Shown: one piece after another, positions 17,462 to 57,533 of the stretch
Numbering within the stretch: the stretch's first letter is position 1
How the letters are laid out: each line of letters starts with the position of its first letter
DNA from: Naegleria gruberi
Taxonomy: Eukaryota
Length of the DNA stretch: 64,000 nt
NCBI GenBank assembly: GCA_000004985.1
Contig: GG738856.1
Direction: 5' to 3' (one strand)
Translations under genes and position numbers: made by a program
The notes under the pieces: model-generated
The model's database searches: none
What the model was told of the DNA's origin: nothing
What the model saw: the letters and a program-made list of their open reading frames with translations, nothing else

Positions 17462-18197
17462 TCATTGTACTTTTACTCCAAACACCAACTTGTAAATAAT
17501 ATTACTGAATGTTTGAACATCAAGAAAACAATACAACCCTCTCTAGAGAATTAGTAGTTCGTTAAAGAATGGGAAAATAGCACAATAAAATCGCTTAAAA
17601 TGTTTGACAGTTCACTTTACATTTGACATTTTTCTAAATCCAATCCCTGACACAATCAGTCTTTTATGTTATCTTTTTCAATTATGGAATTTTATGCTTT
17701 TGAAATATTGTAATCATGTAACCATCATTTGTAGACTCGACAAGGTACATCATTTTACTGTAGAAACATTATTGTAATCTCTTCTTTGTTTGAGGTTGTT
17801 GAAAATCATAATGACATATGTTTTTGATTTCTTGTGACAGATCCACTTATCAAAACCTCAACATCTGCTAGGGGGATCTAGAGATTGTTATCGTATTATC
17901 TTGGCATGTACTTATTCGAAGACTTCTCACCCTTAGTAGAAATCTAAAAATACAATCTTTACCTTCAAAAATTACAACTGTTGAGGTTGTATGATATCCA
18001 AGAACTTGGCAGAAAAAACTACTCGAAAAAATGACTAAAGTTCAACCTGTTCATGATGACAATAAGAAGGTAAGTTTCAAAACAACTTTACTAACATTCA
18101 AATCAAGCAAAATAAAAATGAAGATTTGCTTCTCTTAGATGGTGAAAAGGAAAAGCTTTGCGAAAGAAAGAAAATCATTCTCAAATCTTGCATTTCC

Positions 18198-20537
18198 ATG
18201 AGATTAATCATTACCTTATTAATCATTCTCCTCTTGACGGCATGCTCCATCCTTACCTGGTTAGCTTCCTTCATTGGATCTATAACTGCCTTAGAAGAAT
18301 TATCCCAGAATCTTGTTTCTAGAGTTGGAGAGAAGGCCATTACTTACATTGATAGTCAACTGGATCCTGTTGTGAAACTTTCATCAAGTTTTGCAGCTGA
18401 CATTACCAACGGATCAATTTCTCTTCAACCCTCCATTAGCAACTTGTATCAAAAAGCAACAATCTACAAAGCATCAAGTGTTGGTGTTTTCTATTCACAA
18501 AGTTTGTACTCTGTTGTTTGGGCAGGTGTTTATCCGAATGAAGTATTGACCTATTCAGAGGCAATTCCTGGTCTAGTTTATTGGAAATTGGATGCTAGCA
18601 ATGGAAATGTGGTCTCAGTGTTCAAAAATACGTCTACTATTCCTTTTTCAATCACTTCTCAAGCGTTCTGGGCTGGAAGTTTTGCATTATTCAACTCAAC
18701 TGGTGCTGAAACGATTCTTGGAGCTCCGTATGTGGTAATCAATTCAGGAGTAGTGATTTATTGTTCTACAAAGATTTACGATCCAGTATTGATGGTTCAA
18801 GGAACAAAAAAAGTTATTGGAATTGCAAAAGTCAACTTGACCTTAAAGACCGTTCAGGATTTTTTACAGAAATTGTCCGTGATTGGAAATGGATACATAA
18901 TATTATCAGAAACGAATAACAATGTGATCGGAGCTTCTATTAACTCAACTGCAACTGATGGAGTGTCTAGAATTTCCTTATTTGACCTTACTGATAAAAA
19001 CGCTGGTCAACTGATGACAGATCTCAAAAATCAATATGGAGATATGAGCAAAGTTCCATCCTATAGCCAAATAACTAGTAAGGGAGTAGAATATTTCGTT
19101 TCCAAAATGGACTACCAATATCTCAATGTTCGTTGGAATCTGTATATGGTAATTTACAAATCTGATATCCAAAGAGTTACCAATATTAATACTGGTATCT
19201 CAGTTGCTGTTGCAGTTGTAGTTATTGGAGTGGGTATCATTTGTGGTGTCTTTATTGGACATATTGTAACGAAACCTCTCAGATTCCTTGAAGATCAATT
19301 TTCAAAAATCAAAACTTTTGATTTGAATTCTTGTAATTTCATTTCAAGCCAATTCAAAGAAGTTGATAGAATTTATGAGCATTTGTATGATATGGTCACT
19401 TGGCTTAATGAATTCAAGTCCTTCCTCCCAGAGAGTGTCTTTAATCAACTCAAACATATGGAACTAGTTGAAGATTCGAAACAGCACTCAGCAACTATTC
19501 GACAAAGCGTCCATGATTCACAAGCCATGATGTCCAGTGCTCAACTATCTTCCAAGCATTCTGGAAAATCAAGTAATCTCCAATCTGGCTTGGGAGGAAT
19601 TACTTCTGGAGGTTTATTTAAGGTTGGATTATCCACGAATAAGGTAACAATAGTCTGTGTTAAACTATTTGGGTTTTCTAATGAGAATTCCATGCATGAT
19701 TTATCGTTGCTATTCTCAAAGATTGCTTCCTGCCTTTCAAACTTGTCCAAAACTATGCAAGTCACTGATATGAAGATTAATTCTGTCGATGAATTTCAAT
19801 TATGTTTTACAAATGACAAGAAGAAGAAATCAGAATTTTTGGCCTTAGATGCAAGTTTGAAAATTGCAAAGGCATTGAATAATATTACTGGAAAGTCGGG
19901 TCAGAAAATTGATTATTCAATTGGTGTTTGTTCTGATTTGGCAAATATTGGAAATTTGGGAACTAGTTCACTAAGATATTTTTCAATTGTTGGTTCTGTG
20001 GTTGACAATGCCAAGATAATTGCATTATTGGGACATTCTAGTGCTAGCAGAGTTCTTGTGGATGGAAATACTCTGACTAATGTCAAGGAACAATTCGTAT
20101 ACAAACCTGTGGATCGATTGGAAATGGAACTACACTCTAAAAAGACAATTTGTTCGATTTTTGAAGTGATTAGAGAGAATGTTGTTAATCAAGATGAATG
20201 GCTATACGAATTGGATCAATCGAATAGTAATAATAAGTATTTAGAGTTACAATCTATTTTCCATCAACTATTCGAAAGTTCATCATCCATTTCATTCGAA
20301 ACTTTGAATGATTTCCGATCTAAACTTTCCCAATTCATGAATGAACATCCACAAGAAAGTTCAAACATGACCAAGACTTTAGAATTCTTAGAAATGGTTT
20401 TACAATGCTCTTCAGAATCTCAATCCCATGAAATGCTAAATAATTACAAAACTGTTTTGGAGAAACATTTGACCACTCTTTCTAAATACACCTATTCTGA
20501 TTCCGATGTTATTGTAACCAAAATTAAAATTGATTAA
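18198..20537 (+). CDS. Two-TM receptor: an extracellular sensor domain of about 330 aa (Cache-like), a HAMP-like linker, and a class-III nucleotidyl-cyclase homology domain with a divergent active site.
   Basis: TM1 'MRLIITLLIILLLTACSILTWLASFIG' and TM2 'ISVAVAVVVIGVGIICGVFIGHIV'. The cyclase-like blocks are 'VTIVCVKLFGFSN' (aligning with the F-x-D-I-x-G-F-T metal site, but K replaces the Asp) and 'IGVCSDLANIGNLGTSSLRYFSIVGSVVDNAKIIALLG' (aligning with IGxHxGxVxxGxxGxxRxxYxxxGDxVNxAxRxE). The first ATG in frame is at 18198. The ATG at 18030 belongs to a short uORF that ends in TAA. Confidence 0.55.
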   Translation: MRLIITLLIILLLTACSILTWLASFIGSITALEELSQNLVSRVGEKAITYIDSQLDPVVKLSSSFAADITNGSISLQPSISNLYQKATIYKASSVGVFYSQSLYSVVWAGVYPNEVLTYSEAIPGLVYWKLDASNGNVVSVFKNTSTIPFSITSQAFWAGSFALFNSTGAETILGAPYVVINSGVVIYCSTKIYDPVLMVQGTKKVIGIAKVNLTLKTVQDFLQKLSVIGNGYIILSETNNNVIGASINSTATDGVSRISLFDLTDKNAGQLMTDLKNQYGDMSKVPSYSQITSKGVEYFVSKMDYQYLNVRWNLYMVIYKSDIQRVTNINTGISVAVAVVVIGVGIICGVFIGHIVTKPLRFLEDQFSKIKTFDLNSCNFISSQFKEVDRIYEHLYDMVTWLNEFKSFLPESVFNQLKHMELVEDSKQHSATIRQSVHDSQAMMSSAQLSSKHSGKSSNLQSGLGGITSGGLFKVGLSTNKVTIVCVKLFGFSNENSMHDLSLLFSKIASCLSNLSKTMQVTDMKINSVDEFQLCFTNDKKKKSEFLALDASLKIAKALNNITGKSGQKIDYSIGVCSDLANIGNLGTSSLRYFSIVGSVVDNAKIIALLGHSSASRVLVDGNTLTNVKEQFVYKPVDRLEMELHSKKTICSIFEVIRENVVNQDEWLYELDQSNSNNKYLELQSIFHQLFESSSSISFETLNDFRSKLSQFMNEHPQESSNMTKTLEFLEMVLQCSSESQSHEMLNNYKTVLEKHLTTLSKYTYSDSDVIVTKIKID

Positions 20538-20597: not shown

Positions 20598-23500
20598 TTA
20601 ATTGTCCACAATCCTTTCATTCCATTCCTCAATCTTTTGTAAAATTTCATTAATGTTTGGTCTTTCCTTTGGGTCATGACTCCATGATTGTCTAATGAGT
20701 AAAGTCATTTCAAAAATGATATCCGAGTGGTAGTTCAACACTTCGTTCCTAGGTAGGAATGTTTCACACCAAGTTTGACATTCCTCTGCAGTAGAAAATG
20801 GAATGACAGGTCTCAATCCTTCTTCACAAACACTCTTATGGAATTGATATGAGCTATTAAATACATTTGGTTTGGATAATTTCAATTTTTGAAGAGCTCT
20901 TGCGTCCATACTTTGATATGGTTCTGTTATTTCGAATATTAATTGCCACATTACAATAGCCAAACTGTAAATATCAATTGATCGAGCATCATTTCTACCA
21001 ATATCTCCCGAAAAGAGTTCAGGACTGTTTCACCACCATATTATTGATATTGCACAATTATAAATCCATTCAGAAAAAAACTAACCTCATATAATTACTC
21101 GTTCCAATATGATTGGTGAGGGCTGAAATGCTGTGAGAAGACAAGACTCTTCCCAATCCAAAATCACACAACTTGGCAGTTCCATTCTTGTCTAAAAGAA
21201 TATTTGCTGGTTTCAAATCTCTGAATAATTGTGGACTAATTAAAAAATACTGAGATAGATCAAACATACCTGTGGACAATAAAGTTCGGCTCCAAACAAT
21301 GTAGATAATTGATTCCACTGGCTACATTGAGTAGAATGGACAGTTTCAGTTGAAGTGAACACTTCAATTGGTGTAATTCCAAGCTTCTAATCAAGGATTC
21401 CAAACTCTTATCCATATATTCCATTGCAATAAACCTCTTTGTGGGTGTTGATGAAATACCATAAAAATTGATAATGTTGGGATGTCTCAATTTGGACAAT
21501 AGAATGGCTTCAAATTTGAAATCATCTTCTGAAATATTAATATTATTCAAGTCAAATACTTTGACAGCAATAATAATTCCATTATATTTGGTTGAAAAGA
21601 CACTTCCCATTCCTCCTTCTCCAAGTCTCTGAGTTAAAAATGGTAAATTAGAACTAAGAATATGAATAACGTACCTTAATTGGTTTGTCCATGTGTAACA
21701 GCTCAACAGGAATAATAAAATTCTGCTCCTCCTCACTGGTTGGCTTGGATCCAGAGCCATTACTTGTATATTCCATTTCAGATTGAGATAAGAGTCTTTG
21801 ATCTAAAGTGAGGTCAGTATCATTTATCCTCTTTTGCTTTCTGTACTTCCTTGTGATGAAAATCAAGACAACTGAAATGATTGCAATGACCAATGCAAAA
21901 AATCCTATCAGTCCAAGAACAATTCCCAACATTAAATTGCTGTATTCACATCTCTCTCCACCAAAGCCTTCCTTACATTCGCACATATCATGCTTTACAC
22001 AATTTCCATTACGATTGCAAGCTTCAGATCCAGATATTCCAAAACAAATTGCAATTTGACATGAAACACCTGTATATCCAATACTACAATTACAATTATT
22101 TGGAGAAATACAAGTTCCATTAGAAGAACAAACAGACTGGCTTTCACTGGAAATCCCATTACAAATAGGATATTGACATTGAGAGCCAGAAAATCCAGCA
22201 TGGCACACACACTTGTTATATTCAACACACGTTCCATTTCCGCCATTGCACGAAGTGCTTTCATTTGAAGCAATGCCAAAGCATGTGGCTATACATTCTG
22301 TCATTGTCATACTAAGGACATACCCATCTTTGCAGTAGGGTTTCATCTTGTATATGACATTATATTTGGAATCTGAAATGTAGATTTCACCTTTTCCATC
22401 ATTGGAAAATGTAATACCTTCAGGAATTCCCAATGGAGCACTCACTGCTGACAATTCCATATTAGAATAGTATAGACCTCCATAGGATGTGTCTGTTCCA
22501 TTTCCAGCAATTGTTGTAATTATTCCATCTTTGATTCTTCTAATTCTACCATTGTTAGAATCTGAGAAAATGATATCCTCGTATGGAGGAATGAGCTTTA
22601 AAAATGTTGGACTGTTAAGTTGGGCGTTTTTAGCAGGTAGTCCATCTCCACTAAATCCCTTAATACCTGTTCCAGCCAATGTTGAAATTGTTCCATTTTT
22701 GTAAACTATTCTAATTCGGTGATTGTTTCGGTCAGAAAATATGATGTCCCCTGTGATTTTTGAATAAGCAATACCAGATGGGTAGGCCAAAGATGTTTGT
22801 AATGAATTAATATCATCTGCATAGAATCCATATCCACCATTTCCAGCGATTGTGTGCACAATTCCATTTCTAATCATCCTAATCATGTTATTCGTTACAT
22901 CAGTGAAATAAATGTCATTATTTGGTGCGATGGTCAATCCAAGACAATTTCCAATAGCATTTTCAGAAGGACCTAAATCTCCAACTCCTCCAGCAAGTAT
23001 TTCTATTGTCTTTTTCATAGTATAGACTCGAATTTTATCATTTCTAGTATCGGCCACTAGTACCATCTTCTCCTCTAAGGAATTTGCTACTGCATGAACA
23101 GACATAGGCCCATTAATTTTGGCAGTAAGTGCTGAATCGCCATCTCCCTCAAATCCAGGAAATCCTGTCTGGCTAACAACTGTTCTAATGTTGAAATCAG
23201 TTGTTGAAATGGCCCTAATCTTATTGTTAAATGTATCAGCTTCAAGAAATGTTAATTATTGAATGGATAGAAAAACAGAACTTACCAACATAAATGTCTG
23301 AATACCCATAACTGACACTGTGAGGATAAAAGAGCTGACTTCTGATAGCTGGACCTTCATCACCACTACTTCCATCAATTCCTGTTCCTGCAAGTGTTTT
23401 TACTGTTACATCTGTAATCACTCTAATTCTATGATTATTTGTATCCTTTTAGTAACTTGTTAATGTTTCCAATATGTGATAAAACTTACAGCAACAATTA

Positions 23501-25451
23501 AACCCATTTGTGCTGAAATGACACCCATTGGGTTATTGAATTGAGTTTCGAGTGGTAATTTACCATCTCCATTGTAACCTGGTTCTCCAGATCCAGCAAC
23601 TGTTGAAACTATTCCAGTAGATAACGTAATTTTACGAATAACATGATTATTAGAGTCTGCAACATAAATAGCACTATATTCAGCATGTATTCCTGAAGGG
23701 TGGTTGAAAGTGCTGTTCAATGCTATTCCATCTATATGTCCTTTAATACCTGGTTGACCAGCAATAAGTGAAACAGTTTTTGATAGCAAGTGAATACGCC
23801 ACACACAGTGATTACTATCCGAGAAGAATATATATGTTTCTCCTTCACGTCTAAGTGTAGTAATGCCAGATGGTCCACTAATTCCATGATCCTTCTTATT
23901 TGCAATTGTTGAAATAGTTCCATTTGTTGAGCTGATCATTAACACACGATCATTACTCGTATCTGACACAAAAATCAAAATATCATTTGAAGAGGCAAAA
24001 GAGGAGACTCCTGATGGTCTGTTCAGTACTGAGGATTTGACATTGGTTGGTGCATCTCTTGAAGTGGAAAATTTGTTTCCAAATAAAATGGAATGGCTAG
24101 CAGTATTTGATTTGTTGAGTTTGACAAGAAAGTTTACAGTCCAATAACTAATATCATTTGAAATTAGTAAATTTGAATTCAAGTCCAATGCTATTGAGTA
24201 TGGGTTAGAAATTATTGGTGTTGCTCGATACGGTTCATCTTGTGAGAGTGGAACTAATGTATTTTCAACTATTCCAATATTTCCATCTGAGAGTGTGTAA
24301 TTGAGTATTGATGCGGATCCAGATTCCAGAATTAATAACGATGGAGAGCCGCTACTATCTGAATAGATCAAATCTTTGGGTGACCTTAGTAAAAATGGTG
24401 CTTTCATATCTTTTGCATTCATATTAAAAACTCTCATTCCATTCTTTGAAAATAGAGATGAAATAATGCCAGTTTTCAAATCAATTTGTCTTATATGGTT
24501 AATTCCTATCAACCACAATTTACTTCCAATAACAGAAAGTGAATTCAAAAAATTAATGGAAGCGTCAGTGGCTAAACCTCCATCCCCTGAATCTCCTGAT
24601 GTTATAAAAGCACCACCTATTGATGTAGTATTCATTCCAATGATGGAAGATCCCGAGTACTTGACAGTGGTTTTAAATATTTGAAAGTCTGGAAACTTAA
24701 AATAGTAAAAAGACTCGACACTGTCAATAATTTCATTATTGTCAAGCTCAAATGTCAAAAAGTTGCTGCTGCCACTAAGTGAGATGATTGTCGTTATGTT
24801 TCCACTTGTATGATGTAATTTCCTTATAGTGTACAAAGCAGCAATGTACAAATCATTGTTTGAATTGACATGAATAGAATTAATATGTAACAAGTCGTCA
24901 AATCCTGGAATCTTTTTCACAGAGGACTGTCTCTCATCGATTTCATAAATTCTCGTATAATCTGAATAGTAAATAAGAATCAGGTCATTCTTTTTGTGAA
25001 CAGAAAGTAAACCCAACAAGCAAAATGTCATTTCACTCAATTGTGTAGTTGTTTGCGAATCACAATCACAGGATCGACCACCAGCTATAATCACAGAACT
25101 CCCACTAGTAGCATTATATTTAACTAGATTACAAACACCAGCTTCTTCCTTCATACAGTAAAATATATCATTTCCATTCTCATTGATTGGTTTAGCCAAA
25201 TATCCAACAGTTTCCAAAATTGTTTCCACACCCCCATCTGTTAAATTTAATCTCATCAATGACCACACCGATGTAGAAACATATCCACCGAGGTAGACTA
25301 TTTGTTCGGGATGTTGAAATGATTCATAAACCATCTTGACTTCATACTTGAGCCATGGTTTTGTCTTGTTGCTGGTGGCCAAGTAATGGCTTGATGGTAT
25401 ATTGGACACCAACACTAGAACCATCAGTGGGAGAGGTGTATCCACTCGCAA
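20598..25451 (-). CDS. Receptor-type Ser/Thr protein kinase: signal peptide, two blocks of NHL repeats (beta-propeller), tenascin-type EGF-like Cys repeats, a TM helix, and an intracellular kinase. At least six exons.
   Basis: The NHL repeats read 'NNHVIRKITLSTGIVSTVAG' and 'DTNNHRIRVITDVTVKTLAGTGIDG...'. These were reconstructed across GTAAGT introns at about 23.3-23.5 kb. The EGF-like runs read 'CNGGNGTCVEYNKCVCHAGFSGSQCQYPIC...'. The TM helix is 'MLGIVLGLIGFFALVIAIISVVLIF'. Kinase exons give 'GEGGMGSVF...IAVKV', 'DLKPANILLD...CDFGLGR' and 'SIDIYSLAIVMWQLI...DPKERP' at about 20.6-21.8 kb. Confidence 0.75.
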
Positions 25452-25982
25452 CCATCACCAGCATCCAAGTTATGGCAATGAGAAAATAAAGATTGTAATG
25501 GATTTGCTGTCGTCTCATTTTTTTGTGAACATTCAATCCCATTTTGATATTCGGATCAAATTCCTTGTAAAAGTTTAAATCCACATCATCATCATATGAG
25601 ACATAGATAATATTATCTAATTTCAGACAGAAAAATATTATTAATATTTTGCAAGAGTGGACCAATGATAGTACGAAAAGGTGGCATGAATTAATTGCTG
25701 GAAAACAACCAATTTATAATCCATCATGAAAATTTCTTCTACTATTTAATTCTGATTTAGCAGGGTGATGAAATCATGATGAGTAATTACCCATTGTTTT
25801 TTTTTTGTTGAATATTTAACGGTCGGAACAAACAACTTTCAGCGGTTTTGGTTGGCGCGAAATTACCCTTCCTTTATGAGTGAATGTTAGTGAACCAAGA
25901 GAATGTTGAGTCATAAGTGGATGTAGAGCAATAAATATTCAGAAATAGTATCAAAACTGATTGAATGTTAGGAAGTTTCCAT

Positions 25983-26816
25983 TTATTTGTTAAACAATGT
26001 TTTTAGAGAATAGAGAACCAAGCCAGTCAACCCAATTTTCACAATTGTTTTCAATACTTTCCAAATAATAAACAAAGTTGGAGAAAGAGTTTCCTTCAAC
26101 ATTTCATCAATATCCAACTTGGTTGGGATTTCTCTTTTAGAATTGAGATTAAAACTTCTATTTCCTTGAAGTTTTTCATCGAATAGAGATCGCAATAGGA
26201 AAGAGGCAACATCCTGACGAGTAACTTTGGATGTGCCTTTCGGATAATTATTATCCTCTCCAAATTCGAAATCTAGAGTTATTGGTGAGTCCACCAATTG
26301 AGGAGGTCTTACAATGGCATAAGTAATTTTGGAATCTTTGGTCAATTGGCACAAAGCTCTTTCAGAATTTGCCAAATCTTGATAAACATTGTGGATAATA
26401 TACTTTTTAAGGATATTATCAAAAAACCATGATTGTTTCACATCGAGAATGCCAGCCGACGTAATAATTGCAATTCTCATTGGCTTATCCTGTTTTAACA
26501 TTGCTTTAACTGTATTTGAAACTCCAGTTTCTACTAACGTTGTCTTTCCAATAGTTTTTGATCCGAGTGAACTAATCACATGAGTAACTGATGAACTAAT
26601 CAACTCTTCCACATCTTCCAAACGAGTAGCATCTCCCTTCACAATTGTCATCAATTCTCCAAAATCCTTCTTCAAATACGAAAGCATACTAGGATTCCTG
26701 GCCAACACTCTCACTTTCATTCTATTCGAAAGGAGTAGTAAGAGACATTGCTTGCCAACTCCTTGAGTAGCTCCAAGAAGTGCAATTTCACCAACAGTTG
26801 AATTAAATTGAGACAT
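25983..26816 (-). CDS. NAD(P)-binding Rossmann-fold protein, NmrA/BLVRB-like atypical SDR.
   Basis: N-terminal 'IALLGATQGVGKQCL' is a GxxGxxG-type dinucleotide-binding motif. The overall length and pattern fit the NmrA-like family. Confidence 0.6.
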   Translation of the reverse strand: MSQFNSTVGEIALLGATQGVGKQCLLLLLSNRMKVRVLARNPSMLSYLKKDFGELMTIVKGDATRLEDVEELISSSVTHVISSLGSKTIGKTTLVETGVSNTVKAMLKQDKPMRIAIITSAGILDVKQSWFFDNILKKYIIHNVYQDLANSERALCQLTKDSKITYAIVRPPQLVDSPITLDFEFGEDNNYPKGTSKVTRQDVASFLLRSLFDEKLQGNRSFNLNSKREIPTKLDIDEMLKETLSPTLFIIWKVLKTIVKIGLTGLVLYSLKTLFNK

Positions 26817-28042: not shown

Positions 28043-28411
28043 AGATTTAATAAATATTACCAAATAACGAGGAAATTCCATAGACCAACGCACTCACCAA
28101 ACAGAAACAACAACAATCGTTATATTATATAGATTATTGATTTATTGGTGATGATTTCATCTCCGTGCTTGACATCATTATGGAATCAAAACGATGGGGC
28201 AGAAAAATATTGCAATTGAACAAACATCATGCCGGCTGATTCACCAAAAGATTGTCAAGTTTGAGCTAGGACTTTGAATTTAATACAATTTGATTTTATT
28301 CGAAAGTTCACTTTAGTAAATATTGTAAAGTGTTGATTAGTTTGACATGACACCGTAACTGCGCAAGATAATTACTTCTTTACTAACATGTTCAGCATCA
28401 TAATCAAAAAA

Positions 28412-29299
28412 ATGGCATCAAACAACCGAAACTTTTTCGTCTTGTTTGCTTGTGTGATGAGTTTAGTCTTCCTACAACTCGTTTCGGCCAAGTTAACCAT
28501 CCAACCAGAAAGCAATTCTTGGTGGATTCAACTTCACTCTACCGAACCAGCCAAATACATTAAAGTTTCGTATAAAACTTCTTCAGGCCAAAGAGTTTCG
28601 GTTACTGCAAAACGTCCAAGTTGGGATTCAGCACATAACTATTTCACATGCAGCGCACCAGCAGAAATTCCAAACAATGCACTCACCACCTTTACTCTTA
28701 TCAAAATGAATGGAAAGCGTCAAACCATGTCCATGAAATTCTATAATCGAAACTCTGTTTCTTCTTCTGGAGCTAGCTCTCACTCTGGTGGACACAGCCA
28801 TGGATCCAACCCTTCTAGCAGCGGCAGTGGTCATAAAATTGCCTATGCCACATGGTATGACCAAACAGCTGCTGGAACTCCAGTTTGTGGATTCAAAACT
28901 AAATATTGTGGAGCTCCCTCAGATCAATTCGAAGGTCTTGGCGAAAGAGTTGGACCATGTTCTGGTGGATCTGCCAGTTCCACATGTCAAAATTGTCAAC
29001 GTGGCTACTGTTATGGTCCTAAATGTGTAGCTCCACATTGTAAACATGGTGGTTGTAATAAGAAACTCAAAATTTGGTGTGTGGACACAGCTCAAGGAGC
29101 TTGCAAAACCACCAAACCAATCATCATGACCATTAATAATATTTGTCCGAAAAGACATCCTTGCAATACATGTAAGGGAGGTGAAAATCCGTGTGCCAGA
29201 AAGGATCACTTGGATTTGTGTGAGAGTACCTTCTTTGCCATTGCAAATCATCAACCAAGAGCTAAGGGATTGAAAATTGCCTTTGAATTGGTTCATTAA
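28412..29299 (+). CDS. Secreted protein with an N-terminal beta-sandwich-like domain, a Ser/Gly linker, and a C-terminal Cys-rich double-psi beta-barrel (RlpA/expansin/barwin-like) domain.
   Basis: Signal peptide 'MASNNRNFFVLFACVMSLVFLQLVSA'. DPBB hallmarks 'IAYATWYDQTAAGTPVCGF...' and terminal 'HLDLCESTFFAIANHQPRAKGLKIAFELV'. Confidence 0.55.
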   Translation: MASNNRNFFVLFACVMSLVFLQLVSAKLTIQPESNSWWIQLHSTEPAKYIKVSYKTSSGQRVSVTAKRPSWDSAHNYFTCSAPAEIPNNALTTFTLIKMNGKRQTMSMKFYNRNSVSSSGASSHSGGHSHGSNPSSSGSGHKIAYATWYDQTAAGTPVCGFKTKYCGAPSDQFEGLGERVGPCSGGSASSTCQNCQRGYCYGPKCVAPHCKHGGCNKKLKIWCVDTAQGACKTTKPIIMTINNICPKRHPCNTCKGGENPCARKDHLDLCESTFFAIANHQPRAKGLKIAFELVH

Positions 29300-30188: not shown

Positions 30189-33100
30189 TTAAAGATCTGC
30201 ATCTTCAATCAGAGAATTTTCAATAAGAATAAACAATGCCTCCAAATCATCTTGTTTTTGTAAGAGTTCAATACTTGCAGTGTCTAATCTGAAAGATTTA
30301 TCTCTCAATCGAATAAATCTGATGGCCTTAACAAGAATGTCAAAGATGATGTGTTTGTGGGCCTTGTATGTCTTATTCCTCAATCGATCAATCATTGAAT
30401 TAATATCACAGAATAGTGAGAGAATAAAGACTGCATGCATGATGAATTTTCTCGTATCAACGTCATCGTTGGAAGAAATTGTGAGAATATAATCGAAAAG
30501 AGTGGAAACTACATTGTCGTTCACTCGTTCAGATTTGAGCATACCAATGGCCTTAATGGCATGTAAACGAAGAATGACCATTGATCTTCCTTCCTCGATG
30601 ATTCTCAATAAGAGAGATTGAACTACCTTTTCATCGTTATAATTTGCAACGTATCCTAAAGATTCGGCACAGAGAGCTCTGATTACTTCTGGAACTTCAC
30701 GATTTTCCAAACGTTCCATCAAGTGTTGGACAATGTTTTGTGCACCCCTTTCTGATTTTCTACCCAACAAACGAACTGAAACTTCCACCACACCAATGTC
30801 AGTATGTTTCAATAATTGAATAAAAGTATCAATGACTGCTTGATTGTTTGTATGACTAATCTTTTCCAAAGTTGTTGTACATGAGGTAATAACTTCCTCT
30901 GATTCTGAGAGAAGTCGCTTACAAAGAATTTCAATGATTTTCTGATCACCTTTCTTTGCAATTTGAGCAAGAGCAATGGCACTCTGTTCTCTGTTTACAT
31001 CCTTGGATGATCTGTTTGAAAATTGTTCCAAGAGTGCACAAATGACAACTTCATCCTCCTTTGGAGCTGAATATCCAAGTGCACAAATAATTCTGTCAGG
31101 TTGAGATGAGGTCTTTAACATTTGAAGGAGTTTGCTAACAAGGGCAGGATCCTTTCTTTGACTGATAGATCCCAAGGCCATTGCAACTCGGTATGCAATT
31201 GACTTTCTTTCATTTTCCAACATGTTCAATAATCTGTACTGAATAACAGGCAACAAATCAGGAATAACAACTGCAGAGAATGCTTCACTGACAATCATGT
31301 CATCAAAACTGCTTTCTTTCAAACAATCAATGAGTGTATCAATAATTTCCATGTCACCCTTTTCGGCTAATTTACCCAAGCAAATACAAGCTTCATAACA
31401 CTTGTTCGAAACCTTGGTCAATTCAGAAATAACAAGCGGATCACCATATTTTGCAACAGATCCCAATCCAATACAAGCAACCTTTCTAAAGTTGTAATCG
31501 TTCAACATTGGAATCAACATGTTAATAATTGTCGAATCTTCTTTCTCTGCAACCTTTGTAATTGCTTCAATGGCTGCTTCAATAAGAGGAACGTTGGCTT
31601 TGTTGCTTGTACCCTTTGGAGTATTGTTAATAATATTAGTTAGGGCTGAAATAACCGCCTTGTCACCTCTATCAGCCAATTTACCAATACAAATGCAAAG
31701 TCTCTTTCTAATATTGATATCCTTGGTTTCTTCCAATTTCTTAATGAGAATCGAGACGAATTTTTGTTCTCCCTTTGGCATAATAATTGAAAGTGCATGA
31801 ATAGCATATTCGTTGGTTTCTACGTGTTGTAAAAGCCCATCACCAATCTTTTCGAATAATTGATTGTACATGAACGATCTAGTAATTGCCTTATTTCTCA
31901 AATCTTCTGATTTGTGAATGAGTCCTTGCACAATCATTGAGACATTCTCATCAGTCTTTAATTGCTTCATAATCTTGGAGTATTCTTGATGCTCAGATTT
32001 TGGTCTCTCCATAATCATATTGTAAATAACACTGTCAACTGAAGTCAAATCCTTCTTGAATAATTTCATGATGAGTTTGATGAAATCATCAAAATCGTTT
32101 TTGGCCATTTCAGATGCACAGAACAAGAATGTTTCACTAATGAATTATAAGATGAAAACTATTCGAAATAACTTACGTATAGAATGGATCAACAATAAAT
32201 TGTTGAATTCTTTCCTTGAAAAATTCAAGCTTGTTCTTGGAAAATGGACCAGTTGCTCTCACTCTAAAATCACTGACAACAGATGTGTTAGCCCAGTGAC
32301 TTGCTACAAGATATTGTTGGAAAGAAGTGTGACTGAAACGATATTTACCATCTCCACATGCCATAATTAATGGGAATTTACCCGAGTCAATTCTAGGTTG
32401 AAGAACTTTCCATTGGTTTTGGAATTCTCCATTCGAAACTGCATGGAAAATCCAATCGTCACCCTTGGAAACTAAATCATTTTCTGCAGTGCTGGTAAAC
32501 AAGCCACCATCACTGGTATTATTGAGAGATAATTTTCGAGCAACTTCAATAGAATTAGTAAAATCTTGAGAACTGAACGTATGTCTTCTCAATTTGTGTA
32601 AAAAGATGGACACTTTTCTCAAGAATTCAATGAGGGTAATTTGCATTCTATTGACTTTCTGCTGATCTGACACCAACTTGGTATAGTGAAGTCTGGTAAT
32701 TGTTTGGAGAGCATTTTGATAAATCTTGGATCTGATTTCTGGAAGGGAGCCATTTGTCTTGTACTCTTGAATGATGAGTGAAAGTAAAAGTGGATTCTTT
32801 GCCAATTCTCTGTACTTTCCCTTGATTGCTGAAAAGAATAAACTATCCACAATGTTACGTTTCAGAGCAATCTTCTTTTGAATATCAAATGTTAAATTTT
32901 CCAAAGTGGCAGCAATAAAGGAGGAGAAGAATTTTCTTGTTTTAGAATCAGCTTCAATACCACCCAATCTAGTTGTAACCATAAGTCCATTAGAGTTAGA
33001 AACTTCATCTGGAGGTGGGAATTGTTCAACCAGAGATAGCAAGAGTCTCTTCTTTTGTTGAGGAGAAGCAATTTCATCAATACCATCGAAAATGAAGAGA

Positions 33101-35712: not shown

Positions 35713-35920
35713 TTTTTTTTTTTGGATGATGAAAATTGCTGTTGTTGATGGGAGGATGAGAATGAACGAATGAGGAAGGGACAAGAGACGAGATTTCAGT
35801 GATGTTTGTCTGAGGAAGTTCCCTGCAAAGAGTTTGAGAGAAGATTTTTTATGGTGGATTCGTGTGAGTTTTTTTTCGATTTGTATACAATGGTTGATTG
35901 TAATAAATTAAAGGATTTTA

Positions 35921-53457: not shown

Positions 53458-56400
53458 ATGCAGACATTACCTAATACCCAATACAAAACATGTCAGAGAG
53501 CATGTTTAGTCATGTTTATAATGCTATTCATATTATCTGCATGTATTGTCGAATGCTTTCTAACAGTAAACATTACTTATTCGATTTCCACACTTGTTGG
53601 AAATGATGATAATAGCAAAACAATGGACGGATTGCCAGGTGTTGGCACTTTTGTAGATGGACCTACTGGATTATTCTGGCAAAATGGAATCTTGTTCTAT
53701 GCAGGTAAGTTTCTTGTTGCATGTTGTGTGAAAAATTAAATTGAAATCGAATAGAAAGAAAACACATTAGAAAGTTGGAGAATGGAACAGTAACTACACT
53801 GGCAAGTGGTTTGTCTACACCAAATGGATTATTTGCTCTTAATAACACTATTTACTTTGCCGAAACTTCAGCTAATAGAATTAAGAGAATCAACAGTGAT
53901 TTGACAATTGACATTGTGAGTGCAAACAATACTTCAGGAGGATATAATGGTGATGGCATGCTTTTTAACGCAACATTCTTTGATCAACCAGTCAGTTTAT
54001 GTATTGGTAGTGAAAATATAATTTACATTACTGATTCGAATAATTACAGAATTAGAAAGGTAGATACAGATGGAAAGGTTAAAACAATTGTTGGTGCAGG
54101 ACTGAATGGTTTTAATGGTGATGGTCTCGGTGTTGCCACATACATAACGTAAGTTTTCACATGCACTTTTCATTGTTAACTTTCGAATAGTTGGGCAACT
54201 TCTATTAAATACTGGACGAATGGCTTGAAATCACTATTATACTTTGTACAGTTGAATGAAGGAACCATCAGAACACTAGATCTGAGCACTAACTTGATTA
54301 CAACCATTGCTGGAATTAGGGCAGCTGGAACTTTTGATGGAGATGGAAAATCAGCTTTACAAACTTCATTCTTTCGAATGACTGATGTTACAATATCAAA
54401 AAAGAATGGAAATATTTATGTTACTGATAAGAGCAATCAAAGGATTCGTAAAATTAGCAGTTCTACCAATTTGGTTTCGACAATTGCAGGAAATGGATCC
54501 ATTGGATTTGTTGACTCAATGTCAAATGCCATCAATGCTTCATTGTTTAATCCAATGTATTTAGTTTTGACTGATAATGATGAAATAATCTTCTCAGAGT
54601 TTGGAAATAATAGAATTAGAAAATTAACTCCAACCTGTCCAGAAGGTTACATGTTAGATCTTTACAATGACACTTGTAAAATGTCTTGTTATGGAAAGGC
54701 GTATAATGATCCCAATGTTTGTAGTTCAAGAGGCATTTGTGGTTCTCCTGATAATTGTATTTGCTCTGGTGATTATTTTGGACTGGAATGTGGATCTCAA
54801 TGTGATGCTTTTTCACTGCCAACTGTCAGGTCTGGATCTAAATGTTTGCCATTTTGTTACTCATTGATGGGAAAGGTAGATTTGATATTATCAAGAGCTA
54901 AAGCTATGGTCAATTCAAATGTTACTCTACATGCGAGTATCAATGATAATTGCCTTTCAGAAGTCAAGCAATTTTTGAATATTTCTTACATGATTACAAA
55001 ACCAGATAATAGTACAGACACAATTAGTACCAACGATATGATGATCATCTTGAGTATGAATCAAATAGGCGTCTATACTGCTTCGGTTAAAATCGAATTG
55101 AATTCAACCATCATTTTCATTTCGAATAACTCAATTTCAGTAACTTGTAAAACAAAGGAAGATTATCTTTCAGGTGACTTGACCAAGATTCCAGTTGATG
55201 AACTAATTGATTTAGCTAACTCCCCAGATACTTATCAACAAATTGGAAACTTGACTGTTCAGTCAATTATGAAATCACTTGCTTCATCACTTTCTACTCA
55301 AATTAACCAGCAATTAGATTTACCTTCTCTTGCCAAGTTGACCAATGCGTTAGTTACTGTTTCTACAAAAAAAACATATATTTCAGAGGATGTTATTGTT
55401 GACTTGAATAATGCAATGTATAATGTTTCATTCTCAGTTGACAAGTTTAGTTCTAATTCGTCTAATTTCCAAGTTTTAGAGAGAATTGTGACCTCAATAG
55501 TTGAAGGTTTCACCAATTGTTATTCAACATCAAACCAAACATCACCTTCAACTGTCAACAATTTGCTCAATCGAGTTGTTTCTATGGTTTCCAAAACATC
55601 CAACAAGTCAGACGATGAATTTACAACAAAATCATCAGAATTTACAATTAATGTGAAAAGAAACATTTTAACTCAATTTTTCAATTCCACACACGTCAAC
55701 TTGTACTCACCAAAGAATCTAAGAGATTCCACTATTTCAGTTGCAACCATTTCATTCACAAATCCTCTCAAAATGGTCAACTCATCAAAGGATGCAGAAA
55801 ATATTTTAACATCAATTCCAATTACAGAGCAACTCTTCAATCAGTCGAATGTAAATATTAGTTTCAGTATTTCACCAATTGTTGAAATTCACTATCTCAA
55901 AAATGGTCAAGTAATCAAGCTGGTCAACCTTGCCGATCCAATTATCTTCCAATTTATCACTCAAAATATTTCAACACTTAACATGACTAACTACAAGGTG
56001 AAATGTATGTATCTACATGAGGAAACAAACAAATGGTTGTCAGATGGCTGTCAATCTTCATTTGATTCAATGTCATCAGTTGTGACCTGCTCTTGCAATC
56101 ACACGACTAAATTTTCAAGTTTCGTAATGAGAGAAACTAATCTCACCTTATACTCTGAACATCAATTAGAAACTGATATTTCCTTAGCAGTTTCTGGAAT
56201 AACAGTCTCGTCAATATTCATCTTATGGATTATATTGATTATTATTGGCTTAATCTTTACAAGAAATACGAATCCAAGAAAGTCAAGATGGATTATTCCT
56301 TATCTTTGCCTTACTTCACTCTTAATTGACCTCAGTTTCTCAGATATTGTTTCGAATGCCCTCTTCCTCTCCAAGGAAATCAAATCTTCCGATATTATCA

Positions 56401-57533
56401 GATCAGTTTCTGTTATAGTGACATCAGTTTTCTACATTCTGGCCATTTTCAATTATCTCATTCTCCATTTGAGATATATCCTATTCAGATACACATACGA
56501 AATTATGTTTTCTATTGCAGTCAAGAATGAACAGCAAAAGATTGGTAAATGGATCAAAATTGTAAATAGCAAAGTGGCAGTTTTTGTGGTCAACTTGATT
56601 GGAGCTGTTGTCATTGTGATTTACTTTGTAATTTTCACTGCTTTGGTTAATACTGGATATATTCAAAAAGAATACTCAAAGATAATGTCAGCATCTTTCT
56701 TTGTGGTGGTTTCTTTAATTTATTTAATACTTTTAATGCTTGCCATATTTGATTTCTATATGGAAAATAGACATGTCAGTAAGGAGGAGAAATCGACAAG
56801 TGACAAGAAGAAGATTAGCTTATTTTTGGATATCTACAAGTTTATATTTGTGAATGATGTGTTGGTATTCAGAAAGGAGTTGATTTTTTCATTCATTTCG
56901 TATTTATTCTTTGTTTTGAACTTTGCTTTGGGTTTCTCCTCATTGGATAATCCGACTGTGACTTCATTTGCTGAGGCATCCTATGCATTTGGTGTTGTAT
57001 ACGAGTTCTTTAACATTCTGGCGTTTGGAGGTTTCGTATTCCTTGTGAATTTTTGCTCAATTAATTGGAAACGTAGAAACTATTCTAATCAAGATGATGA
57101 GAATGAAAATAGAGAACTAGATATTGTACTTTCCAATCCACAACTTTTGAAAATATTTGAAGAATATTGCATGAGAGAATTTTCTTTGGAAAATATTTTG
57201 ATTTTCAAGAAACTTGAATCTTTACAAAAAAGTGAACTTTCACCAATTGACAACGAGTCACTTTTTGAAGAAATGAAAAAGGATTACTTTATTAATGGAG
57301 CAGAATTTGAAGTCAACCTTTCCTCCTCCATGAAAAAGCAATTTATTCAACTTTGTTCCGATCTGAAACATGTAGAAAGGACTCAAGTGGATGAAATATT
57401 GGAACGTTTGAGGGATGACATTTATATGAACTTGAGTGATACATTTTCTAGATTTATTTTCACCAACGAATATGCATCTATTAATGAGTGTATAGAATTG
57501 AAAGAAAAAACAGGCCAGTCCTTTACAAAATAA
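53458..57533 (+). CDS. Adhesion-GPCR-like receptor fused to an RGS domain: signal peptide, NHL repeats, EGF-like Cys module, Ser/Asn-rich stalk, GPS-like motif, 7TM and a C-terminal RGS domain. Three exons, approximately join(53458..53704,53755..54148,54191..57533).
   Basis: NHL repeats 'NNYRIRKVDTDGKVKTIVGAGLNGFNGDG' and 'SNQRIRKISSSTNLVSTIAGNGS'. EGF-like 'CPEGYMLDLYNDTCKMSCYGKAYNDPNVCSSRGICGSPDNCICSGDYFGLEC'. GPS-like 'CMYLHEETNKWLSDGCQSSFDSMSSVVTCSCNHTTKFSSFVM'. Seven hydrophobic helices between about 56.18 and 57.05 kb. RGS 'LLKIFEEYCMREFSLENILIFKKLESLQ...EVNL...'. The exons were joined across GTAAGT introns with 'cgaatag' acceptors, with frames checked. Confidence 0.75.

What the first reader, a model, noticed from the sequence alone, without database searches (positions are those of the whole stretch)
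20598..25665. Receptor Ser/Thr kinase with a double NHL-propeller plus EGF ectodomain, paralogous to the GPCR-RGS ectodomain
A multi-exon minus-strand gene encodes a signal peptide, two NHL-repeat blocks, EGF-like Cys repeats, one TM helix and a cytoplasmic kinase (HRD-type 'DLKPAN', DFG). Its EGF/NHL module shares the same Cys spacing and NHL consensus as the ectodomain of the 7TM-RGS gene at 53.5-57.5 kb. One example is 'C.DGY.L....C...C.G......C...G.C.....C.C..G..G..C'. The same ligand-binding cassette therefore appears shuffled onto two different output modules, a kinase and a GPCR-RGS, within 30 kb. Receptor kinases with NHL propellers are not a standard metazoan or plant class.
Basis: partly seen in the sequence, partly recalled or inferred. 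Interest (0 to 1): 0.68.

Follow-up and report, generated by a model that had tools for sequence, protein, structure and literature searches.

The report
Naegleria NHL-propeller receptor kinase gene
This is an intact gene of the amoeba Naegleria gruberi, apparently missing from its public annotation, for a single-pass receptor kinase with an NHL beta-propeller and EGF outer part; it belongs to an undescribed receptor family specific to Naegleria and its relatives, and is interesting but not revolutionary.

Summary
The gene is real. Six GT-AG-spliced exons on the minus strand (25334..20598) give one 1496-codon frame: about 17-18 beta-propeller blades (ten clear NHL repeats), a Cys-rich junction, four teneurin-type EGF repeats, one TM helix and an intact TKL-like Ser/Thr kinase.

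The window is Naegleria gruberi NEG-M, because neighbouring genes match its proteins exactly. No public protein matches this gene, so it looks unannotated.

Collinear relatives exist in N. lovaniensis and in Naegleria-like metagenome contigs. One relative carries NHL, EGF, TM and kinase in a single uninterrupted ORF, so these parts belong to one polypeptide.

The comparison with the 7TM-RGS gene at 53458-57533 (XP_002679679.1) is half right. Both share the NHL-junction-EGF order and near-identical Cys spacing. This junction occurred only in Naegleria-type proteins, never in about 350 bacterial NHL proteins. However, their propellers are only 27-30% identical, further apart than each is from bacterial NHL proteins. 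They are distant members of a cassette family, not recent duplicates.

The cassette also occurs on bare membrane anchors. The kinase module also occurs with EGF-only and RCC1-like outer domains.

Unresolved: how the signal-peptide exon is joined, the ligand, and expression. "Double propeller" is probably triple.

The parts
25414..25518 (-). Candidate 5' exon for the signal peptide (MRRQQIHYNLYFLIAITWMLVMVASGYTSPTDGSS). An alternative ATG lies at 25542. Joining is unverified.
   Evidence: The ORF 25342-25665 is in a different frame from the main ORF. Hydrophobic segment at aa 6-28. Splice options are enumerated.
25365..25413 (-). Best-guess 49-nt intron joining the signal-peptide exon to the main frame. 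The donor GTTGGT is non-consensus. Unverified.
   Evidence: The other seven introns read in this window start GT[AT][AC]GTT.
23490..25364 (-). Exon 1, certain from ATG 25334. It encodes 615 aa of all-beta blades. The N-terminal blades are degenerate and the first clear NHL repeats start at aa 440.
   Evidence: AF2 gives 41 strands, about 10 four-stranded blades, at mean pLDDT 66.9. The top Foldseek hits are tandem propellers.
23286..23445 (-). Exon 2 (one NHL blade), flanked by introns 23446-23489 (44 nt) and 23240-23285 (46 nt).
   Evidence: The reading frame restores DTNNHRIRVITD / ADTFNNKIRAI NHL motifs.
21675..23239 (-). Exon 3: the last five NHL blades, the Cys junction, four EGF repeats, the TM helix and the juxtamembrane segment up to ...HMDKPIK.
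   Evidence: Continuous ORF 21654-23105.
22335..24017 (-). Ten clear NHL blades (aa 440-970 of the ATG-25334 model), spanning introns 1 and 2.
   Evidence: Blade HMM hits with E from 4e-13 to 2e-19 for nine blades and 9e-4 for the tenth. Pfam NHL at 54.6 bits. Best PDB relative is teneurin-like protein 9ifo, E=5e-48.
21945..22334 (-). Junction (C-x2-GY-x9-C-x3-CFG) plus four teneurin-type EGF repeats (aa 971-1100).
21852..21935 (-). Single transmembrane helix LMLGIVLGLIGFFALVIAIISVVLIFIT, followed by the positive-inside RKYRKQKR.
   Evidence: Hydropathy peak of 3.25.
20634..21680 (-). Kinase domain (aa 1189-1485) on exons 3 (its last two codons), 4, 5 and 6. Exon 4 is 21270-21628, exon 5 is 21086-21220 and exon 6 is 20598-21024. 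The introns are 21629-21674, 21221-21269 and 21025-21085. Stop TAA at 20598-20600.
   Evidence: Pfam Pkinase E=3.8e-45. Catalytic motifs aligned with the family. Best PDB hits are CTR1, TAK1, TNNI3K, SOBIR1 and IRAK4.
53458..57533 (+). Comparison gene: NHL propeller, junction/EGF, GPS, 7TM and RGS receptor (NAEGRDRAFT_64936, XP_002679679.1). Exons are 53458-53704, 53755-54148 and 54191-57533. Features: NHL 53575-54635, junction+EGF 54636-54791, GPS 56001-56117, 7TM 56199-57062, RGS 57117-57473.

Best explanation
The locus is one intact gene of Naegleria gruberi NEG-M that appears to be unannotated. It encodes a type I single-pass receptor-like Ser/Thr kinase.

Shown:
- From the outside in, the protein has about 17-18 beta-propeller blades. 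The membrane-distal 7-8 are degenerate. The ten membrane-proximal ones are clear teneurin-type NHL repeats.
- Next come a short disulfide-rich junction, four teneurin-type EGF repeats, one TM helix and a 59-aa juxtamembrane segment.
- The last module is an RD-type kinase of the TKL kind with every catalytic motif intact.
- It belongs to a receptor-kinase family found only in Heterolobosea (Naegleria and its relatives) among the named hits.
- In that family the same EGF-stalk/TM/kinase module is combined with different sensors: NHL propellers, EGF only, EGF+NHL+REJ, or RCC1-like propellers.
- The NHL-junction-EGF sensor cassette is also found on GPS-7TM-RGS receptors and on bare membrane anchors.

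Inferred mechanism:
- The propeller stack binds an extracellular ligand or surface, such as prey, substrate or another cell.
- The EGF repeats act as a rigid stalk.
- Ligand-driven clustering brings the kinase domains together for trans-autophosphorylation of the Ser/Thr-rich activation loop (DFGLGRVLSSHSISALTNHIGTSNYMSPE).
- This switches on cytoplasmic signalling.

The ligand and the substrates are unknown.
For: Gene model: all five introns are GT..AG, 44-61 nt long, and preserve the frame. The public model of the neighbouring 7TM-RGS gene uses the same kind of introns that I inferred for it (100% identity).

One polypeptide: P0123 and its contig L001 (ENA metagenome, 34% GC, 46- and 49-nt introns) carry NHL, EGF, TM and kinase in one ORF. 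The whole L001 protein is collinear with the RK (32% identity over 1194 aa, E=4e-155). N. lovaniensis XP_044551476.1 is collinear over 1112 aa. It has a signal peptide, one TM and the Pfam domains NHL, TEN_NHL and Pkinase.

Organism: exact matches to NAEGRDRAFT_47369, 47370, 78941 and 64936, all on the 602,266-bp scaffold.

Unannotated: there is no identical or near-identical protein among 5.8 billion clusters. None appears in the top hits of the 1.8-billion-representative library, where it would have ranked in the upper part of the list. One candidate full-length model (start at ATG 25424) is not in the collection.

Kinase class and integrity: best PDB hits are CTR1 (2.6e-31), TAK1, TNNI3K, SOBIR1 and IRAK4. 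All motifs are conserved across nine family members.

Propellers.

Topology: a single TM with positive-inside residues, plus an upstream signal-like ORF.

Family modularity.
Against: The signal peptide is not in frame with exon 1. The only way I found to join it uses a non-consensus donor. Without it the ectodomain would not be exported.

There is no expression evidence for this gene, and it is absent from the public gene set. That absence could mean the annotators saw no support.

No close orthologue was found. The best full-length relatives are 32% identical, so selection on this copy could not be measured.

The mechanism (ligand-induced clustering) is inferred by analogy only.

The AF2 model is of moderate confidence (mean pLDDT 66.9, and below 35 for aa 1-50). 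It covers exon 1 only, so the three-propeller count is an estimate.
Confidence: 0.75

Rival explanations
1. The locus is a decaying or silent copy (pseudogene) of the receptor-kinase family. The frame break between the signal-peptide ORF and exon 1 would be a real lesion, which would explain why the locus has no public gene model.
For: The signal-peptide ORF and the main ORF overlap in different frames. No consensus-type intron joins them. No matching protein exists in public collections.
Against: About 4.5 kb of coding sequence over six exons has no stop or frameshift. All splice sites and all catalytic residues are intact. A paralogue (XP_002679619.1) is annotated only as a kinase fragment starting at the same exon boundary (MDKPIK), so poor gene modelling of this family is a sufficient explanation.
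Confidence: 0.1
2. There are two genes. One is a membrane-anchored NHL-EGF adhesion protein that ends after the TM helix. The other is a separate cytoplasmic kinase gene downstream.
For: NHL-EGF proteins with only a TM anchor and a short tail do exist, such as N. lovaniensis XP_044543576.1. N. gruberi has a kinase-only model for a paralogue.
Against: The exon 3 frame stays open up to a consensus GTACGT donor. The 46-nt intron is in phase. The next exon begins at RLGEGGMG. Relatives have both parts in one ORF or in one curated model.
Confidence: 0.03
3. It is the same protein, but it acts mainly as a homophilic or heterophilic adhesion and recognition molecule, in the manner of teneurins. The kinase would report contact rather than a soluble ligand.
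For: The best solved-structure relatives of the propeller are teneurin-like proteins (E=5e-48). The EGF repeats match the teneurin EGF models. The same cassette sits on GPS-bearing adhesion-GPCR-like 7TM-RGS receptors. Bosch et al. 2022 (PMC9283941) argue that Naegleria fowleri 7TM-RGS proteins with GPS and EGF resemble adhesion GPCRs.
Against: There is no direct evidence. NHL propellers bind very different partners in different proteins. This is a sub-variant of the main explanation rather than a true alternative.
Confidence: 0.25
4. The two NHL-EGF ectodomains in this window arose by a recent local duplication, and exon shuffling then placed them on two different output modules.
For: Both genes lie within 33 kb. 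They share domain order and Cys spacing.
Against: They are only 27-31% identical. Each ranks near the bottom of the other's hit list (237th and 223rd of 240), below bacterial NHL proteins and below Naegleria and Willaertia proteins encoded elsewhere. The NJ tree of cassettes is star-like, and the two genes are not sisters in it. They lie on opposite strands.
Confidence: 0.05

Closest known systems
Uncharacterised Naegleria receptor kinases: N. lovaniensis XP_044551476.1 and XP_044553469.1, N. gruberi XP_002678784.1, XP_002681046.1 and XP_002679619.1, plus the metagenome proteins P0123 and P0494
   Same: They share the kinase subfamily (49-59% identity in the closest members, and a shared C-lobe insert with LRP-IPF...EC..WC). 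They share teneurin-type EGF repeats next to the TM helix. Several have NHL propellers and the same NHL-EGF junction.
   Different: None is an orthologue. Full-length identity is about 32%. The number of blades and of EGF repeats differs. Some members lack NHL altogether. All are annotated only as hypothetical or protein-kinase-domain proteins. I found no paper that describes the family.
Mycobacterium tuberculosis PknD, a receptor Ser/Thr kinase with an NHL beta-propeller sensor (Good et al. 2004, cited in PMC6107167)
   Same: It uses the same logic: an extracellular NHL propeller, a single TM helix and a Hanks-type Ser/Thr kinase.
   Different: The orientation is opposite, with the kinase N-terminal and the propeller C-terminal (from my own knowledge). 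PknD has one six-bladed propeller and no EGF stalk. phmmer found no sequence match to PknD at E<=1e-3. The kinase here is closest to eukaryotic TKL kinases.
Teneurins and teneurin-like proteins
   Same: The NHL propeller is of the TEN_NHL type and the EGF repeats are of the teneurin type. In both, the EGF repeats are membrane-proximal and the NHL domain is distal. The best PDB relative is teneurin-like protein 9ifo/9pt5.
   Different: No Pfam match to a YD/RHS shell or toxin domain was found. The topology is type I rather than type II, and the output is a cytoplasmic kinase. The EGF_TEN score of 39 bits is below its 65-bit cut-off.
Naegleria 7TM-RGS receptors (Bosch et al. 2022, PMC9283941)
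   Same: The comparison gene at 53458-57533 is one of these. It has GPS, 7TM and a C-terminal RGS domain with an EGF-containing ectodomain, and it shares the NHL-junction-EGF cassette with the kinase.
   Different: The output module is different: a GTPase-accelerating RGS domain on a 7TM core versus a kinase on a single TM. That paper mentions EGF and lectin domains but not NHL propellers.
TKL-group kinases: CTR1/Raf-like MAP3Ks, TAK1, IRAK4 and plant receptor kinases such as SOBIR1 and CERK1
   Same: These are the best solved-structure matches of the kinase domain. HRDLKxxN, DFG and a C-terminal W..DP..RP motif are shared.
   Different: Only about 30% identity. No phylogeny places it inside any named TKL family. 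The ectodomain type is unrelated to plant LRR or LysM receptors.
Propeller-EGF ectodomains of LRP5/6 and Hedgehog-interacting protein
   Same: They have tandem six-bladed propellers followed by EGF modules. LRP6 P3E3P4E4 is the top fold match for exon 1 (E=2.5e-13). HHIP aligns across the last blade, the junction and the EGF repeats (E=3e-5).
   Different: The LRP propellers are YWTD-type, not NHL. The TM-scores are low (0.32). This is a structural analogy only.

Membership tests
Eukaryotic protein kinase superfamily (active enzyme) | Kinase-domain profile match above the curated threshold | tested here: met
   Pfam Pkinase at 154.8 bits (cut-off 31.7), E=3.8e-45, aa 1189-1485.
Eukaryotic protein kinase superfamily (active enzyme) | Catalytic motifs: Gly-rich loop, VAIK Lys, alpha-C Glu, HRD, DFG and APE | tested here: met
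   GEGGMG, IIAVK, FEAILL, HRDLKPAN, DFG and SPE are all present and align with eight relatives.
TKL group of kinases | Closest to TKL families in a kinome-wide classification | tested here: inconclusive
   The best PDB hits are TKL kinases: CTR1 2.6e-31, TAK1, TNNI3K and IRAK4. No kinome HMM library or phylogeny was available.
Type I single-pass receptor kinase | Exactly one internal TM helix between the ectodomain and the kinase | tested here: met
   One hydropathy peak (3.25) at LIGFFALVIAIISVVLIFI, followed by RKYRKQKR.
Type I single-pass receptor kinase | Cleavable N-terminal signal peptide in frame | tested here: inconclusive
   A signal-like ORF lies upstream in another frame. It can be joined only by an unverified 49-nt intron. 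The relatives L001 and XP_044551476.1 do have N-terminal signal-like segments.
NHL-repeat beta-propeller | NHL profile match above threshold, in multiple tandem copies | tested here: met
   Pfam NHL at 54.6 bits (cut-off 20). Ten blades are matched by a blade HMM. Collinear alignments of 590-815 aa to bacterial NHL proteins.
NHL-repeat beta-propeller | Four-stranded blades closing into six-bladed propellers | tested here: inconclusive
   AF2 of exon 1 gives 41 strands in groups of four and matches tandem propellers. Confidence is moderate. The spliced full ectodomain could not be submitted.
Teneurin | Type II topology with a YD-repeat shell and a C-terminal toxin-like domain | tested here: not met
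   No YD/RHS or toxin Pfam hit. The topology is type I. EGF_TEN at 39.1 bits is below its 65-bit cut-off.
PknD-like bacterial NHL sensor kinase | N-terminal kinase, TM, C-terminal single NHL propeller, and sequence relatedness to PknD | tested here: not met
   The domain order is reversed. No PknD chain appears among the PDB matches at E<=1e-3.
7TM-RGS receptor (applies to the comparison gene at 53458-57533) | Seven TM segments followed by an RGS domain | tested here: met
   RGS at 25.2 bits (cut-off 23.9) and GPS at 30 bits (cut-off 22.5). Six strong hydrophobic segments; a seventh weak stretch seen only by eye would make seven. Identical to XP_002679679.1.
NHL-junction-EGF cassette of Naegleria-type receptors (proposed here) | Last NHL blade followed by C-x2-G[YH]-x7-10-C-x3-C[FY]G and an EGF repeat | tested here: met
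   The regex matches the RK, the 7TM-RGS gene (as my model and as P0241), L001/P0123, XP_044551476.1 and XP_044543576.1. That is 7 of 514 sequences, or 5 distinct proteins. None of about 350 bacterial NHL proteins matches.

The most novel reading that the evidence does not exclude
Heterolobosea may have built their own receptor Ser/Thr-kinase system independently of plants and animals. In this reading, one teneurin-type NHL-EGF sensor cassette, perhaps ultimately of bacterial origin, is plugged interchangeably onto a TKL-like kinase, a GPS-7TM-RGS G-protein regulator and a bare anchor. The same extracellular cue would then be read in parallel by phosphorylation and by G-protein pathways.
Probability: 0.2. 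Interest if true: 0.6.

Novelty: new variant of a known kind. Interest (0 to 1): 0.42.

Why it matters
Receptor kinases are thought to have been assembled independently in several eukaryotic lineages. A Heterolobosea-specific family that joins a TKL-like kinase to NHL propellers would add an example from Discoba.

Its sensor cassette is shared with the 7TM-RGS receptors that Bosch et al. (2022) showed act on Naegleria G-alpha subunits. This gives a concrete case of sensor-module swapping between two signalling systems.

Practically, the gene appears to be missing from the N. gruberi protein set, and a paralogue is annotated as a kinase fragment. Domain-architecture surveys of Naegleria have therefore probably undercounted receptor kinases.

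Relatives in the pathogen N. fowleri, if present, would be surface-exposed kinases. I did not examine them here.

Tried and rejected
1. A whole-protein homology search was swamped by bacterial multi-NHL proteins. No kinase-bearing hit appeared in the top 120. The C-terminal part had to be searched separately.

2. The look-up of encoding contigs failed for three single-exon window ORFs and for the N. gruberi protein P0122. N. gruberi seems not to be in that index. The organism was identified instead.

Only exon 1 was modelled.

4. The representative-library search with the EGF+TM+kinase part of P0123 was largely swamped by giant EGF-repeat proteins. Family members were recovered by re-BLASTing the hits against the RK.

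5. I enumerated all GT..AG options for the 5' end. Many are frame-compatible and none has the consensus donor, so the N-terminus stays open.

6. An NJ tree of NHL-junction-EGF cassettes is star-like and has no support values. I use it only to say that the two window genes are not sisters.

7. Literature searches for Naegleria with NHL, kinome, TKL or receptor kinase found nothing on this family.

8. I considered and rejected membership of the teneurin and PknD families (see the membership tests).

Full report
WHAT IS IN THE SEQUENCE

The region is gene-dense eukaryotic DNA with about 34% GC. On the minus strand, long ORFs at 23460-25451, 23242-23421, 21654-23105, 21260-21760, 21070-21318 and 20598-20963 are linked by five short introns. 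Each intron has GT..AG ends and a GT[AT][AC]GTT donor. They lie at 23489-23446 (44 nt), 23285-23240 (46 nt), 21674-21629 (46 nt), 21269-21221 (49 nt) and 21085-21025 (61 nt). Splicing them gives one uninterrupted frame of 1496 codons from ATG 25334 to TAA 20600-20598.

Pfam finds Pkinase (E=3.8e-45, aa 1189-1485), NHL (54.6 bits), EGF_Teneurin and EGF_2 above their cut-offs, and EGF_TEN below its cut-off. A hydropathy scan finds exactly one internal TM segment (LIGFFALVIAIISVVLIFI, followed by RKYRKQKR). The kinase has GEGGMG, AVK, the alpha-C Glu, HRDLKPAN, DFG and SPE. It is therefore predicted to be an active RD-type Ser/Thr kinase.

THE 5' END

A convincing signal-peptide-like ORF (MRRQQIHYNLYFLIAITWMLVMVASG, ATG 25518) lies just upstream, but in another frame. 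I enumerated every GT..AG pair. The most plausible join is a 49-nt intron at 25413-25365. Its donor (GTTGGT) departs from the consensus seen in the seven other introns I read in this window. In-frame starts at 25424 or 25334 would give no signal peptide. This point needs transcript data.

ONE GENE, NOT TWO

Exon 3 is a continuous frame from NHL blades through the EGF repeats, the TM helix and the juxtamembrane segment to the donor after ...HMDKPIK. The next exon starts at RLGEGGMG, the first kinase subdomain.

A relative found with the C-terminal part of the protein, P0123 (ENA metagenome), carries NHL blades, five EGF repeats, a TM helix and the kinase in a single uninterrupted ORF. Its contig L001 has 34% GC and introns of 50 and 46 nt. 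After splicing it encodes a signal peptide followed by a protein collinear with this one (32% identity over 1194 aa, E=4e-155).

N. lovaniensis XP_044551476.1 (P0496) is collinear over 1112 aa. It has a signal-like N-terminus, one TM helix and the domains NHL, TEN_NHL and Pkinase.

ORGANISM AND ANNOTATION STATUS

My three-exon model of the 7TM-RGS gene at 53458-57533 is 100% identical to N. gruberi XP_002679679.1 (NAEGRDRAFT_64936). The ORFs at 25983-26816, 28388-29299 and 44758-45828 are exact matches to NAEGRDRAFT_47369, 47370 and 78941. All of these lie on the same 602,266-bp scaffold. The window is therefore N. gruberi NEG-M.

In contrast, neither the whole receptor kinase nor its C-terminal half finds any identical or near-identical protein among 5.8 billion clusters. 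None of the best 150 representatives from the 1.8-billion library is more than 37% identical to it. One candidate full-length model (start at ATG 25424) is not in the collection.

The closest N. gruberi protein, XP_002679619.1 (58% identity), is a 303-aa kinase-only model that starts at the equivalent MDKPIK exon boundary. I conclude that this gene is unannotated and that its paralogue is truncated. This is an inference from absence, but a fairly strong one.

THE ECTODOMAIN

A blade HMM finds ten clear NHL units between aa 440 and 979 of the ATG-25334 model. Bacterial NHL proteins align collinearly over 590-815 aa, some starting as early as aa 154.

AlphaFold2 of exon 1 (615 aa, shallow alignment, mean pLDDT 66.9) gives 41 beta-strands in groups of four. 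That is about ten blades between aa 57 and 580, plus the start of an eleventh. Foldseek's best matches are tandem-propeller ectodomains: LRP6 P3E3P4E4 (E=2.5e-13) and the Bacteroides BT4663 sensor.

Seven NHL units lie from aa 598 to 968. The total is therefore 17-18 blades, enough for three six-bladed propellers rather than two. This is an estimate, because the spliced ectodomain could not be submitted for modelling.

The best solved-structure relatives of the clear NHL part are teneurin-like proteins (9ifo and 9pt5, E about 5e-48). Hedgehog-interacting protein aligns across the last blade, the junction and the EGF repeats (E=3e-5).

COMPARISON WITH THE 7TM-RGS GENE

That gene encodes a signal-like segment, six NHL blades, the junction and one EGF repeat. 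Next come a long Ser/Asn-rich region, a GPS motif, and six strong hydrophobic segments with a seventh weak stretch seen only by eye. It ends in an RGS domain.

The two ectodomains align significantly (85.9 bits, E=3e-22, 27% identity over 359 aa), and the alignment runs through the junction into EGF1. Their Cys spacing is almost identical: 12, 3, 10, 6 or 5, 5, 1, 8.

A pattern for 'last blade - C-x2-G[YH]-x7-10-C-x3-C[FY]G - EGF' matched 7 of 514 collected sequences. These represent five distinct proteins, all from Naegleria or Naegleria-like contigs:
- this kinase;
- the 7TM-RGS gene (matched twice, as my model and as P0241);
- L001 and P0123, which are the same protein;
- N. lovaniensis XP_044551476.1, a kinase;
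- N. lovaniensis XP_044543576.1, an NHL-EGF protein with only a TM anchor.

None of about 350 bacterial NHL proteins matched. So a composite NHL-junction-EGF module really is shared across receptor classes.

The two window copies, however, are not close. With the last six blades plus EGF1 of the kinase as query, the 7TM-RGS gene ranks 237th of 240 (85 bits). It falls behind bacterial NHL proteins (150-162 bits), N. gruberi XP_002670673.1 (168 bits) and the Willaertia magna 7TM-RGS protein KAL9647059.1 (155 bits, aligned across the junction). In the reciprocal search the kinase ranks 223rd. An NJ tree is star-like and does not pair them.

The 30-kb proximity is therefore probably not the trace of a recent shuffle. 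I could not calculate how unlikely the proximity is without a genome-wide count of NHL genes.

THE FAMILY

Re-analysis of the library hits shows a family of 'sensor - teneurin-type EGF - TM - kinase' proteins. Its named members are all heterolobosean. The sensors vary:
- NHL: this gene, XP_044551476.1, XP_044553469.1, P0494 and P0123.
- EGF only: N. gruberi XP_002681046.1 and N. lovaniensis XP_044551181.1.
- EGF+NHL+REJ: N. gruberi XP_002678784.1.
- RCC1-like propellers: Percolomonas MMETSP transcripts.

The kinase domains share the catalytic motifs. The closest members also share a C-lobe insert (LRP-IPF...EC..WC).

The best solved-structure matches of the kinase are TKL kinases: CTR1, TAK1, TNNI3K, SOBIR1 and IRAK4.

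WHAT IS KNOWN

Naegleria 7TM-RGS receptors are described. N. fowleri has 28, several with GPS motifs, EGF repeats and lectin domains, and their RGS domains accelerate GTP hydrolysis on Naegleria G-alpha subunits (Bosch et al. 2022, PMC9283941). NHL propellers are not mentioned there.

I found no paper on Naegleria receptor kinases or on NHL-kinase fusions in eukaryotes.

The nearest functional analogue is bacterial PknD, whose sensor domain is an NHL propeller (Good et al. 2004, as cited in PMC6107167). PknD has the opposite domain order and shows no detectable sequence match here.

The gene is not a teneurin: it has no YD shell and is type I.

MECHANISM

The domain order, the topology elements and the intact catalytic site are shown. 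The rest is inferred by analogy with other single-pass receptor kinases. In that scheme the propeller stack binds a ligand or surface, the EGF repeats form a stalk, and clustering leads to activation-loop autophosphorylation of an RD kinase and then to downstream signalling. An adhesion or recognition role, as for teneurins and adhesion GPCRs, is an equally plausible flavour of this. The ligand, the substrates and expression are unknown.

VERDICT

It is a new variant of a known kind, namely a eukaryotic receptor Ser/Thr kinase with an NHL-propeller sensor. The family is present but unnamed in databases, and this copy seems unannotated.

Interest is moderate (0.42).

Noticed in passing
window 18126-20537 (+): This is the convergent neighbour of the kinase gene, with only a 60-nt gap. 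It is an 803-aa ORF with an N-terminal hydrophobic anchor, an extracellular part of about 330 aa and a second TM segment. By eye, the C-terminal region resembles a degenerate class III nucleotide cyclase. Pfam gives no hit at E<1e-3.
   Followed up: partly
window 32173-35784 (-): A second kinase gene. It has a Pkinase domain (E=7e-46) followed by a weak NACHT-like match (23.5 bits, below the 26.7-bit cut-off). It is unrelated to the receptor family.
   Followed up: partly
window 53458-53622 (+): The public model of the 7TM-RGS gene (XP_002679679.1) starts at an internal Met. It omits 55 upstream codons that encode a signal-like hydrophobic segment (aa 17-35), so the public model probably lacks its signal peptide.
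   Followed up: partly
window 56001-56117 (+): The GPS motif of the 7TM-RGS gene reads CSCNHTTKF. The usual HL|T/S autoproteolysis triplet is HT|T here, so the receptor may not be cleaved.
   Followed up: no
L001 (ENA ERZ929261, 4860 bp) and JGI metagenome proteins P0389, P0505-P0507: Naegleria-like eukaryotic contigs in metagenomes were gene-called as prokaryotes. Their receptor kinases are split at introns or labelled 'tRNA A-37 threonylcarbamoyl transferase component Bud32'.
   Followed up: partly
window 23446-23489, 23240-23285 and 53705-53754; L001 2828-2873: Introns inside NHL blades of three different genes all fall within 0-3 residues after the '..Y[VI]A' strand, just before the D-x-x-N-x-[IV]-R motif. 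They differ in phase and in which blade they interrupt. I cannot say whether this reflects common descent or a preferred insertion site.
   Followed up: no
window 21221-21269 (-): Intron 4 of the kinase gene splits the Arg codon of the catalytic HRD motif.
   Followed up: no
window 39653-41593 (+): A 646-aa ORF has weak PAP2 and vanadium-chloroperoxidase-like matches (PAP2 at 28.6 bits). Its exact sequence is not in the public collection, so the public model, if there is one, differs from the simple ORF.
   Followed up: no
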